Source: Escherichia coli
GTDB lineage: Bacteria > Pseudomonadota > Gammaproteobacteria > Enterobacterales > Enterobacteriaceae
Strand: one strand, 5' to 3'
Assembly (NCBI RefSeq): GCF_002854065.1
Contig: NZ_CP024147.1
DNA length: 64,000 bases
Position numbers and translations under genes: made by a program. Positions 18,842 through 37,167 of this stretch are shown here, piece after piece; the stretch's first letter is position 1, and the number at the start of each line of letters is the position of its first letter. Under the pieces are notes generated by a model. That model did no database searches and was not told the origin of the DNA. It worked only from the letters and a program-made list of their open reading frames with translations.

Positions 18842-18917
<76 letters not shown>

Positions 18918-18956
18918 ACGATGCGTTTACGTACCAAATTTGCTGGGTGCAAAATT

Positions 18957-19032
<76 letters not shown>

Positions 19033-23478: not shown

Positions 23479-23554
23479 GGGTGATTAGCTCAGCTGGGAG
23501 AGCACCTCCCTTACAAGGAGGGGGTCGGCGGTTCGATCCCGTCATCACCCACCA
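23479..23554 (+). tRNA. valU: tRNA-Val (UAC)
   Basis: GGGTGATTAGCTCAGCTGGGAGAGCACCTCCCTTACAAGGAGGGGGTCGGCGGTTCGATCCCGTCATCACCCACCA. Confidence 0.95.
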
Positions 23555-23598
23555 ACTGCTTTATGTAGTCTCCGCCGTGTAGCAAGAAATTGAGAAGT

Positions 23599-23674
23599 GG
23601 GTGATTAGCTCAGCTGGGAGAGCACCTCCCTTACAAGGAGGGGGTCGGCGGTTCGATCCCGTCATCACCCACCA
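23599..23674 (+). tRNA. valX: tRNA-Val (UAC)
   Basis: Identical copy of valU. Confidence 0.95.
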
Positions 23675-23720
23675 CTTTCTCACCAGCTAAATTTCTTGTA
23701 AAAATGTGAAGTACCGAAGT

Positions 23721-23796
23721 GGGTGATTAGCTCAGCTGGGAGAGCACCTCCCTTACAAGGAGGGGGTCGGCGGTTCGATCCCGTCATCACCCACCA
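23721..23796 (+). tRNA. valY: tRNA-Val (UAC)
   Basis: Identical copy of valU. Confidence 0.95.
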
Positions 23797-23800
23797 CTTC

Positions 23801-23876
23801 GGGTCGTTAGCTCAGTTGGTAGAGCAGTTGACTTTTAATCAATTGGTCGCAGGTTCGAATCCTGCACGACCCACCA
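23801..23876 (+). tRNA. lysV: tRNA-Lys (UUU)
   Basis: GGGTCGTTAGCTCAGTTGGTAGAGCAGTTGACTTTTAATCAATTGGTCGCAGGTTCGAATCCTGCACGACCCACCA, 4 nt after valY. Confidence 0.95.
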
Positions 23877-35660: not shown

Positions 35661-36120
<460 letters not shown>

Positions 36121-36122
36121 TC

Positions 36123-37034
36123 TTAAATCCCCGCCCCCTGACTAAAATGCTCTTCCCCAAACACCCCGGTGGAAAGGTAGCGATCGCCACGATCGCAGAT
36201 GATCGCTACCACCACCGCACCAGGGTTAGCTTTTGCCACCCGCAGTGCTCCGGCAACCGCGCCGCCGGAGCTGACGCCACAGAATATTCCTTCCCGCACC
36301 GCCAGTTCGCGCATGGTGTTTTCCGCATCGCGCTGATGAATATCCAGCACCTCATCCACCAGAGAAGCGTTGAAAATCCCCGGCAGATATTCCGCAGGCC
36401 AGCGGCGAATGCCGGGAATGCTACTGCCCTCTTCCGGCTGCAGGCCAACAATGGTCACCGGTTTGGATTGTTCGCGCATAAAGCGTGAAACGCCGGTGAT
36501 AGTGCCGGTTGTTCCCATGCTGGAGACAAAATGGGTAATGCGCCCGCCAGTCTGCTGCCAGATTTCCGGCCCGGTAGTGGTGTAATGGGCGTAAGGGTTA
36601 TCGGGATTGTTGAACTGATCGAGCAGCTTTCCTTCACCACGATTCGCCATCTCCAGCGCCAGATCGCGCGCACCTTCCATGCCCTGCTCTTTGGTGACAA
36701 GAATCAGTTCCGCACCATAAGCACGCATCGCCGCACGGCGTTCCTGACTCATGTTGTCGGGCATCAGCAATTTCATGCGATAGCCTTTAAGCGCGGCAAT
36801 CATTGCCAGCGCAATGCCGGTGTTACCACTGGTGGCTTCGATTAACACATCACCCGGTTTAATTTCCCCGCGCTTTTCCGCCTCGACGATCATCCAAAGC
36901 GCAGCACGATCTTTCACCGAACCTGCCGGGTTATTGCCTTCCAGTTTTAACCACACTTCACTGCCGTTATTCGGCCCCATTCGCTGCAACTTCACCAGAG
37001 GCGTATTGCCTATTGTTTGTTCTAATGTACTCAC
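36123..37034 (-). CDS. cysM: Cysteine synthase B (O-acetylserine sulfhydrylase B)
   Basis: 303 aa from GTG 37034 (VSTLEQTIGNTPLVKLQRMG); ORF track opens at an upstream Met. Confidence 0.9.
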   Translation of the reverse strand: MSTLEQTIGNTPLVKLQRMGPNNGSEVWLKLEGNNPAGSVKDRAALWMIVEAEKRGEIKPGDVLIEATSGNTGIALAMIAALKGYRMKLLMPDNMSQERRAAMRAYGAELILVTKEQGMEGARDLALEMANRGEGKLLDQFNNPDNPYAHYTTTGPEIWQQTGGRITHFVSSMGTTGTITGVSRFMREQSKPVTIVGLQPEEGSSIPGIRRWPAEYLPGIFNASLVDEVLDIHQRDAENTMRELAVREGIFCGVSSGGAVAGALRVAKANPGAVVVAIICDRGDRYLSTGVFGEEHFSQGAGI

Positions 37035-37057
37035 GATCTCTGTCCATACGTGGTGTC

Positions 37058-37093
37058 GCCTGATGCGACGCTTGCGCGTCTTATCAGGCCTAC
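37058..37093. repeat. REP element between cysM and cysA
   Basis: GCCTGATGCGACGCTTGCGCGTCTTATCAGGCCTAC. Confidence 0.8.
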
Positions 37094-37167
37094 AGGTTAC
37101 AAACCTTGCCATTAAAAAACCCGGATCGCGGGAAGCGCCTCCGGGCGTTTAACATTCACTCAACCTA

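What the first reader, a model, noticed from the sequence alone, without database searches (positions are those of the whole stretch)
36118..36125. yfeK and cysM converge with a 2-bp gap; yfeS appears absent
The yfeK stop (36118-36120) and the cysM stop (36123-36125) are separated by 2 bp with no terminator between them, whereas from my memory of K-12 a further gene (yfeS) lies here. Either this strain never had the gene or it was lost cleanly, and the two convergent transcripts must overlap at their 3' ends.
Basis: partly seen in the sequence, partly recalled or inferred. Interest (0 to 1): 0.25.

Follow-up and report, generated by a model that had tools for sequence, protein, structure and literature searches.

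The report
Ordinary yfeS-less yfeK–cysM junction
This strain has the common, probably original E. coli layout in which yfeK and cysM end 2 bp apart, and it is K-12 that carries an extra, foreign-looking gene (yfeS) there, so the finding is correct but ordinary.

Summary
yfeK (35752-36120, +) and cysM (36123-37034, -) converge with a 2-bp spacer (TC, 36121-36122), and no terminator-like site or Rfam RNA lies at the junction.

The window shows the majority state. The contiguous junction is in 4035 of 5426 complete E. coli genomes; the yfeS segment is in 1381.

The empty site looks ancestral:
- Pseudocitrobacter faecalis has a near-identical 2-bp junction.
- Another Escherichia species, an unnamed Enterobacteriaceae genome, Citrobacter amalonaticus and a Superficieibacter have 39 bp or less between the stops, or overlap.

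yfeS looks acquired:
- It is 39% GC.
- Its nearest relatives outside E. coli/Shigella and that MAG are at most 65% identical, the named ones from Firmicutes/Bacteroidota.
- It is 96% identical to a copy in a Pseudocitrobacter MAG whose flanks are only 80-90% identical.
- No genome carries the junction expected from deletion between the cassette's 8-bp repeats.

3' transcript overlap follows from the geometry but is untested. Rho-dependent termination of yfeK read-through (C-rich, G-poor tract) is my inference. Already known; low interest.

The parts
35691..35718 (+). sigma-E-like promoter motif upstream of yfeK (GAAACTT, 16-nt spacer, TCAAA)
   Evidence: Read from the sequence. The motif is identical in K-12, BL21 and E. 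albertii. K-12 yfeK-yfeS is described as a sigma-E (sigma-24) operon in PMC11502571, as sigma-E regulon genes in PMC2685091, and yfeK is among the sigma-E promoters studied in PMC3326320. The consensus itself is recalled from memory, and promoter activity was not tested here.
35752..36120 (+). yfeK CDS: 122 aa, GTG start, DUF5329 domain, signal-peptide-like N-terminus, C-terminus ...VPAQ*
   Evidence: ORF. Pfam PF17263, E = 1.8e-31. RefSeq annotates it as 'YfeK family protein' in the identical strain XJ34. K-12 YfeK is 124 aa and ends ...VPAEGN*.
36085..36118 (.). Palindromic hairpin over the last codons of yfeK (AUUGCGCAG...CUGCGCAAU). It can form on both strands.
   Evidence: On the + strand it folds at -13.7 kcal/mol (z = -1.95). 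On the - strand it forms an 11-bp stem beginning 7 nt after the cysM stop. It is not conserved: one stem pair is mismatched in the E. coli representative L003, the 3' arm differs in E1V33 L004 and E. albertii L005, and the K-12 allele does not fold into it. It is absent from the RNAalifold consensus, whose covariation term is about 0. Any function is speculative.
36115..36122 (.). Empty site: 8 nt (CAATAATC) occupy the position where K-12 has 967 nt (L001 2216-3182), a net difference of 959 bp
   Evidence: BLAST and visual alignment of the window against K-12. In K-12 the segment is bounded by the 8-bp direct repeat ATTAATCC (L001 2223-2230 and 3175-3182, read).
36121..36122 (.). 2-bp spacer (TC) between the two stop codons
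   Evidence: RefSeq annotation of XJ34.
36121..36198 (+). C-rich, G-poor tract on the yfeK read-through transcript (antisense to the cysM 3' end); candidate Rho-utilisation region
   Evidence: 29 C against 15 G, a C/G ratio of 1.93. This is above the 95th percentile (1.73) of 78-nt windows on both strands of this 64-kb window. Inference only.
36123..37034 (-). cysM CDS (cysteine synthase B, 303 aa, GTG start), last gene of the cysP-T-W-A-M cluster
   Evidence: ORF. 98.7% amino-acid identity to K-12 CysM over all 303 aa. RefSeq annotation of XJ34.

Best explanation
The window shows the unoccupied and probably ancestral form of a small variable spot between two convergent conserved genes. These are yfeK, a sigma-E-controlled gene for an exported DUF5329 protein, and cysM, the last gene of the sulfate/thiosulfate cys cluster. 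The strain most likely never had yfeS.

In K-12 and about a quarter of complete E. coli genomes, a 959-bp AT-rich segment sits at this spot. It consists of yfeS plus a REP-containing spacer. It changes the end of YfeK from ...PAQ* to ...PAEGN* and places yfeS 32 bp downstream of yfeK on the same strand; the literature describes the two as one sigma-E-controlled operon.

With only 2 bp between the stops and no intrinsic terminator, each transcript must end inside the other gene, so the two transcription units overlap at their 3' ends. That overlap is inferred. I further infer that yfeK read-through is stopped by Rho on the C-rich, G-poor antisense-cysM RNA. I also infer that cys-cluster transcripts run into structured antisense-yfeK RNA, where they end by Rho, by polymerase collision, or by 3' trimming.
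For: Shown by tool results:
- The junction and the absence of yfeS are confirmed.
- K-12 has yfeS plus a REP-containing spacer at exactly this point, 959 bp extra.
- The contiguous empty junction is in 4035 of 5426 genomes; the yfeS segment is in 1381 of 5426.
- The genes also abut or overlap outside E. coli. Pseudocitrobacter faecalis has a 2-bp gap with a near-identical junction, GCGCAATAAACTTAAATCC. Enterobacteriaceae UBA5654 has a 1-bp gap. Escherichia sp. E1V33 has a 12-nt overlap. Citrobacter amalonaticus and a Superficieibacter strain have 34- and 35-bp spacers between the stops.
- yfeS is 39% GC, against 52% for the window and 56% for cysM (profile).
- Apart from the Pseudocitrobacter MAG, YfeS relatives outside E. 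coli/Shigella are at most 65% identical. The named ones come from Paenibacillus, Dysgonomonas, Lysinibacillus and Clostridium.
- A Pseudocitrobacter MAG carries the same cassette with the same junctions. Its yfeS is 95.9% nt-identical to K-12, while its flanking yfeK is 80% and cysM 90% identical. This indicates recent lateral spread of the filled allele.
- The junction predicted from deletion between the ATTAATCC repeats occurs in no genome. The best full-length matches are 93-94% and are ordinary empty alleles.
- Other lineages hold unrelated cargo at the same spot.
- For termination: there is no terminator-like site at the junction, and the C/G ratio downstream of the yfeK stop is 1.93, above the 95th percentile.
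Against: - The direction of the event is inferred by parsimony from 22 species-representative loci of which about a dozen are Enterobacteriaceae. Salmonella and E. fergusonii were not recovered.
- The 8-bp direct repeats flanking the K-12 segment could in principle mediate deletion.
- Both the empty and the filled junction sequences occur in two genera, so recombination has moved alleles around. A simple vertical history cannot be assumed.
- K-12 and BL21 yfeS differ by 2.7%, about as much as their flanks, so the insertion is not very recent in E. coli.
- The Pseudocitrobacter carrier is a metagenome bin.
- No transcript data were examined, so the overlap and the Rho step are untested.
- The hairpin and the downstream structure have no covariation support.
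Confidence: 0.85

Rival explanations
1. The window's lineage descends from a yfeS-bearing ancestor and lost the 959-bp segment by a clean deletion, for example slippage or illegitimate recombination between the short direct repeats at its ends.
For: K-12 has the 8-bp direct repeat ATTAATCC at both ends of the segment. K-12 and BL21 yfeS alleles are 2.7% diverged, so the gene has been in E. coli for some time.
Against: - The empty junction (CCTGCG-CAATAATC-TTAAATCC) is not the product expected from recombination between those repeats (CCTGCGGAAGGAAATTAATCC-TTAAATCC). That product is found in none of the 5426 genomes.
- Pseudocitrobacter faecalis has an almost identical empty junction on diverged flanks.
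- More distant Enterobacteriaceae also lack yfeS.
- yfeS has a foreign composition and no close enterobacterial relatives outside this locus.
- 74% of genomes, including O157:H7, ST131 and O111 strains, share the empty state. That these belong to different phylogroups is from my own knowledge.
Confidence: 0.08
2. The close abutment is itself functional. Overlapping 3' ends would couple sigma-E-driven yfeK transcription to cysM mRNA fate (antisense pairing, RNase III cleavage or polymerase collision). The palindrome at 36085-36118 would act as a collision-type bidirectional terminator embedded in coding sequence.
For: - Abutment or overlap is kept across several genera.
- A hairpin able to form on both strands sits at the boundary.
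- The 126 nt downstream of the cysM stop fold better than all 200 shuffles, z = -3.8.
- The yfeK 3' end is 90-100% nt-identical between E. coli and Pseudocitrobacter, while its 5' end is 58-72% identical.
- Stem-loop-dependent polymerase collisions are reported to terminate convergent E. coli genes (bioRxiv 10.1101/2022.10.23.513370).
Against: - The RNAalifold covariation term is about 0, and the predicted pairs are invariant mainly because the region is coding.
- The boundary hairpin is broken in other Escherichia alleles and is absent from the consensus structure.
- A quarter of E. coli genomes separate the two genes by about 1 kb, and other species tolerate 0.5-3.8 kb inserts.
- The high identity of the 3' end can be explained by inter-genus recombination at this spot.
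Confidence: 0.06
3. The junction is an assembly or sequencing artefact that dropped yfeS.
For: None found.
Against: The same contiguous junction is present in 4035 complete RefSeq genomes at 93.8-100% identity. Strain XJ34 is 100% identical over 1401 bp.
Confidence: 0.01

Closest known systems
E. coli K-12 yfeK-yfeS / cysM locus (b2419-b2421)
   Same: The flanking genes, their order and orientation are the same (ptsI, crr, pdxK, yfeK, cysM, cysA, cysW). Flank identity is 97%. The sigma-E-like motif upstream of yfeK is identical.
   Different: K-12 has 959 extra bp, made of yfeS (244 aa, WGR domain) and a 188-bp spacer with REP elements. Its YfeK ends ...PAEGN* rather than ...PAQ*. In K-12 the convergent pair is yfeS and cysM, separated by 188 bp of REP sequence rather than 2 bp.
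yfeS-less arrangement annotated in most RefSeq E. coli genomes (e.g. XJ34, O157:H7 strains, ST131 strains)
   Same: The gene content and the 2-bp spacer are identical. XJ34 is 100% identical over 1401 bp.
   Different: Nothing of substance; the window is a member of this class.
Bidirectional, collision-assisted termination between convergent E. coli genes (Wang, Watters, Ju, Liu; bioRxiv 10.1101/2022.10.23.513370)
   Same: A convergent pair with a stem-loop at the boundary that can form in both transcripts.
   Different: Here the stem-loop lies inside the yfeK coding sequence, has no U-tracts and is not conserved among close relatives. Its function was not tested.
REP/BIME intergenic elements
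   Same: In strain HYM1 it carries an IS1397 insertion.
   Different: The window has no REP at this junction.

Membership tests
Majority 'empty-site' yfeK-cysM allele of E. coli | Contiguous junction sequence spanning both stop codons | tested here: met
   An 80-bp junction query matches contiguously in 4035 of 5426 genomes at 93.8-100% identity.
Majority 'empty-site' yfeK-cysM allele of E. coli | Intact yfeK and cysM reading frames on either side | tested here: met
   YfeK is 122 aa with a DUF5329 domain. CysM is 303 aa, 98.7% identical to K-12 over its full length. RefSeq annotates both in the identical strain XJ34.
K-12-type yfeK-yfeS operon | A yfeS (WGR-domain) gene downstream of yfeK | tested here: not met
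   The window lacks the 959-bp segment present in K-12, and no ORF lies between yfeK and cysM. The rest of the 64-kb window was not searched for a yfeS homolog.
Intrinsic (Rho-independent) terminator | GC-rich stem-loop followed by a U-run at the 3' end of the gene | tested here: not met
   The scan finds none at the junction on either strand. The hairpin at 36085-36118 is followed by UCUUAAAUCCCC on the + strand and UUAGCGCAUGU on the - strand, and neither is a U-run.
Rho-dependent terminator | C-rich, G-poor, poorly structured untranslated RNA downstream of the stop codon | tested here: inconclusive
   The composition fits on the + strand: C/G is 1.93, above the 95th percentile of this window. 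Composition alone does not show Rho action. On the - strand C/G is only 1.0-1.3.
Rho-dependent terminator | 3' ends that shift or disappear when Rho is inhibited | not testable with these tools
   This needs bicyclomycin Term-seq in a yfeS-less strain.
Horizontally acquired insertion (for K-12 yfeS) | Atypical composition, patchy distribution, absence from outgroups, and higher identity across taxa than the flanks show | tested here: met
   yfeS is 39% GC and is present in 25% of genomes. It is absent from all recovered outgroup loci except one Pseudocitrobacter MAG. It is 95.9% identical to that MAG's copy, whose flanks are 80-90% identical.
Transposable or site-specific mobile element (for the yfeS cassette) | Own recombinase or transposase, terminal inverted repeats, exact target-site duplication | tested here: not met
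   The cassette encodes only yfeS. The flanking 8-bp repeat does not match the empty-site sequence exactly. In the enteric loci examined it sits at this site; one degraded copy lies on a plasmid.

The most novel reading that the evidence does not exclude
The 3'-to-3' abutment of yfeK and cysM could be a selected regulatory arrangement. Envelope-stress (sigma-E) transcription of yfeK would run antisense into the end of cysM, and cys-cluster transcription would run antisense into yfeK. This would link envelope stress to cysteine synthesis through RNA duplex formation or polymerase collision at the boundary palindrome. The yfeS-plus-REP insertion in K-12-type strains would uncouple the two genes.

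A second reading is also not excluded: that the yfeS cassette inserts site-specifically, given identical junctions in two genera.
Probability: 0.06. Interest if true: 0.4.

Novelty: already known. Interest (0 to 1): 0.08.

Why it matters
It matters little. It is a reminder that K-12 is not the reference state for every locus. yfeS is an accessory gene carried by about a quarter of complete E. coli genomes, and the compact yfeK/cysM junction is the common form.

Two minor points of use:
- In most E. coli, the sigma-E-controlled yfeK is monocistronic rather than part of a two-gene operon.
- yfeS-less and yfeS-bearing strains form a natural pair for testing how transcription ends when convergent genes are 2 bp apart, compared with about 1 kb plus REP elements.

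Tried and rejected
- **Conserved RNA structure downstream of cysM (antisense to the yfeK 3' end).** A single-sequence fold looked significant (z = -3.8). An alignment of 13 loci gave a covariation term of about 0, with pairs invariant because the region is coding. Rejected as evidence of a selected structure.
- **Known RNA families.** There are no Rfam hits at the junction. The only weak hit, mir-23 at E = 0.097, is chance.
- **Defence-system role for YfeS or the E. albertii cargo.** There are no PADLOC matches. Pfam gives only the WGR domain for YfeS and a sub-threshold DKNYY hit for one E. albertii ORF.
- **Repeat-mediated deletion.** The predicted junction is absent from all 5426 genomes.
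- **A remnant of yfeS in the 0.5-kb Superficieibacter electus insert.** blastn and tblastn found no similarity. The insert encodes an unrelated small ORF.
- **A mobile source of yfeS.** The plasmid search found only one E. coli plasmid with a 70%-identical copy, and it lacks any ORF of 100 aa or more, so it is probably a pseudogene. Phages gave only distant partial Listeria hits. The next-closest metagenomic homolog (58% identical) sits beside a methyltransferase in unrelated contigs.
- **Literature.** Papers on yfeS and yfeK cover sigma-E regulation, boric-acid sensitivity and overexpression phenotypes. The papers I opened say nothing about the presence/absence polymorphism or 3' ends; the other hits were judged from titles and abstracts only.

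Full report
**Observation.**
The sequence reads ...GTG CCT GCG CAA TAA TC TTA AAT CCC.... TAA at 36118-36120 ends a 122-codon ORF at 35752-36120 on the + strand. TTA at 36123-36125 is the complement of the stop codon of a - strand ORF.

Pfam identifies the first ORF as a DUF5329 (YfeK family) protein, E = 1.8e-31. The second is CysM, 98.7% identical to K-12 CysM over all 303 residues. Its real start corresponds to the GTG at 37034; the upstream in-frame ATG at 37112 in the ORF list is not the annotated start.

The 1401 bp around the junction are 100% identical to E. coli strain XJ34, where RefSeq annotates yfeK and cysM 2 bp apart. The neighbouring ORFs of the window correspond to the genes annotated at the same relative positions in XJ34: ptsI, crr, pdxK, yfeK, cysM, cysA and cysW, with cysT following by comparison with HYM1.

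**What K-12 has.**
In a K-12 derivative (locus L001) the same interval holds three features:
- yfeK (124 aa);
- yfeS (244 aa, + strand, 32 bp downstream of yfeK);
- a 188-bp spacer before the cysM stop.

The two sequences align up to window 36114 and again from window 36123. The window has 8 nt (CAATAATC) where K-12 has 967 nt, a net difference of 959 bp. This agrees with the 2360-bp against 1401-bp spans.

The insertion changes the YfeK C-terminus from ...VPAQ* to ...VPAEGN*. The K-12 segment is bounded by the 8-bp direct repeat ATTAATCC (L001 2223-2230 and 3175-3182). YfeS carries a WGR domain (PF05406, E = 6e-18).

yfeS is co-directional with yfeK, not with cysM.

**How common each state is.**
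| State | Test | Genomes (of 5426 complete E. coli) |
|---|---|---|
| Empty junction | 80-bp query across the junction, contiguous match at 93.8-100% identity | 4035 (74%) |
| yfeS segment | at least 80% of the 955-bp K-12 segment present | 1381 (25%) |

- Rows without yfeS include O157:H7, O111:H8, O145:H28, O25b:H4-ST131 and O83:H1 strains.
- Rows with yfeS include K-12 derivatives, BL21 and several animal isolates.
- From my own knowledge, these correspond to phylogroups E, B1 and B2 lacking it and phylogroup A carrying it.
- The window therefore shows the usual E. coli arrangement, and K-12 is the minority form.

**Direction of the event.**
A scan of one genome per species with YfeK returned 22 loci. 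I located yfeK, yfeS, cysM and pdxK in them by tblastn and read the junctions.

Loci where yfeK and cysM abut or overlap without yfeS:
- another E. coli representative (2-bp gap);
- Pseudocitrobacter faecalis (2-bp gap, junction GCGCAATAAACTTAAATCC, one base different from the window);
- Enterobacteriaceae UBA5654 (1-bp gap);
- Escherichia sp. E1V33 (the two genes overlap by 12 nt);
- Citrobacter amalonaticus and Superficieibacter sp. (spacers of 34 and 35 bp between the stops);
- Entomohabitans teleogrylli has a somewhat longer spacer, 67 bp between the stops.

Loci with unrelated material at the same spot:
- E. albertii has 1.8 kb with two - strand ORFs, 34.5% GC.
- S. electus has a 0.5-kb insert with one small unrelated ORF.
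- C. sedlakii has 3.8 kb with two + strand ORFs of 628 and 654 aa.

Evidence that yfeS is an acquired gene:
- yfeS is 39% GC, against 52% for the window and 56% for cysM.
- Apart from the Pseudocitrobacter MAG, YfeS relatives outside E. coli/Shigella are at most 65% identical. The named ones come from Paenibacillus, Dysgonomonas, Lysinibacillus and Clostridium.
- One non-Escherichia locus, a Pseudocitrobacter MAG, carries yfeS with the same two junctions as K-12. Its yfeS is 95.9% nt-identical to K-12, while its yfeK is 80% and its cysM 90% identical. Those flanks are Pseudocitrobacter-like, about 91% identical to P. faecalis. The filled allele has therefore moved between genera far more recently than the genera diverged.

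The junction that deletion between the two ATTAATCC repeats would leave does not occur in any of the 5426 genomes. The best full-length matches to a synthetic 116-nt version are 93-94% identical and are ordinary empty alleles.

Taken together, the empty site is ancestral and yfeS is a derived insertion that spread by recombination. I put this at about 0.85.

Caveats:
- The outgroup sample is small, and Salmonella and E. fergusonii were not recovered.
- Alleles at this spot clearly recombine. The last 60 nt of P. faecalis yfeK are 100% identical to K-12, whereas the first 60 nt are 58% identical.
- K-12 and BL21 yfeS differ by 2.7%, about as much as their flanks, so the insertion is not recent.

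**How the junction probably works.**
Upstream of yfeK the window has GAAACTT-N16-TCAAA at 35691-35718, identical in K-12, BL21 and E. albertii. The literature assigns K-12 yfeK-yfeS to the sigma-E regulon (PMC11502571, PMC2685091, PMC3326320). In the window yfeK would therefore be a monocistronic sigma-E-controlled gene.

No terminator-like site lies at the junction. With 2 bp between the stops, transcription of either gene to its stop codon must continue into the other gene, so the transcription units overlap. This is a geometric inference, not a measurement.

On the + strand, the first 78 nt after the yfeK stop have 29 C and 15 G. That C/G ratio of 1.93 is above the 95th percentile of such windows in this 64-kb sequence. 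This composition is typical of Rho-utilisation regions (established knowledge), so I infer Rho-dependent termination of yfeK read-through.

On the - strand, a hairpin with an 11-bp stem begins 7 nt after the cysM stop. The first 126 nt fold at -42 kcal/mol (z = -3.8, 0 of 200 shuffles). These structures could act as a 3' barrier, or as the stem-loop that positions polymerase collisions at convergent genes (bioRxiv 10.1101/2022.10.23.513370).

The support for this is weak. The boundary hairpin is broken in other Escherichia alleles and does not form in the K-12 allele. RNAalifold over 13 loci gives a covariation term of about 0, with pairs invariant because the region codes for conserved residues. 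I therefore treat a selected structure as unsupported.

**Comparison with what is known.**
The arrangement is the one annotated in thousands of RefSeq genomes. yfeS is simply an accessory gene that happens to be present in the laboratory reference strain. Nothing here departs from known kinds of features.

The papers I opened do not discuss the polymorphism, and the titles and abstracts of the other hits do not suggest that they do. It is nonetheless visible in any pan-genome comparison.

**Verdict.**
- Novelty: already known.
- Interest: about 0.08.

Noticed in passing
L007 4370-5316 (Pseudocitrobacter MAG contig CAJYVI010000176.1): This locus carries the same yfeS-plus-REP cassette with the same junctions as K-12. 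Its yfeS is 95.9% nt-identical to K-12, while the flanking yfeK is 80% and cysM 90% identical. This suggests recent transfer of the filled allele between genera, although a binning chimera cannot be excluded.
   Followed up: partly
L006 4301-4363 compared with L001 2153-2215: The last 60 nt of P. faecalis yfeK are 100% identical to K-12, while the first 60 nt are 58% identical. This steep gradient suggests recombination between genera, or unusual constraint, at the yfeK 3' end.
   Followed up: partly
L004 1417-1428 (Escherichia sp. E1V33): yfeK and cysM overlap by 12 nt in this species. YfeK ends ...VPSNP*, and the cysM stop is TGA instead of TAA.
   Followed up: yes
L005 4376-6194 (E. albertii NBRC 107761): A 1.8-kb, 34.5% GC insert lies between yfeK and cysM. 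It has two - strand ORFs (280 and 175 aa) with no significant Pfam or PADLOC match, only a sub-threshold DKNYY hit.
   Followed up: partly
L011 4431-8142 (Citrobacter sedlakii) and L012 4489-4896 (Superficieibacter electus): Other unrelated cargo occupies the same spot. C. sedlakii has two + strand ORFs of 628 and 654 aa. S. electus has one small ORF whose stop codon overlaps the cysM stop. The yfeK/cysM junction appears to be a recurrent insertion spot.
   Followed up: partly
L026 10615-11964 (E. coli HYM1): A frameshifted IS1397-family element is inserted in the REP-containing spacer between yfeS and cysM. From my own knowledge, IS1397 is known to target REP/BIME sequences.
   Followed up: no
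L031 4001-4702 (E. coli plasmid NZ_CP098226.1): A sequence 70% identical to YfeS over 96% of its length lies on a 50-kb plasmid. It is unannotated and has no ORF of 100 aa or more, so it is probably a pseudogene.
   Followed up: partly
window 35752 compared with L001 1853: The yfeK start codon is GTG in the window and in E. albertii, but ATG in K-12 and BL21.
   Followed up: no
window 37035-37112: The cysM reading frame stays open 26 codons upstream of the annotated GTG start, back to an ATG at 37112. E. albertii has the same extension. RefSeq annotates the shorter 303-aa form.
   Followed up: no
window 18845-19032 (-) and 23479-23873 (+): Two tRNA clusters are present: two identically scoring tRNAs on the - strand, and four tRNAs on the + strand of which three score identically.
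   Followed up: no
L025 3068-3271 (BL21-AI): The BL21 yfeS-cysM spacer is 16 bp longer than in K-12 and only 87% identical to it, although yfeS itself is 97.3% identical. The REP region is the fastest-changing part of the cassette.
   Followed up: no
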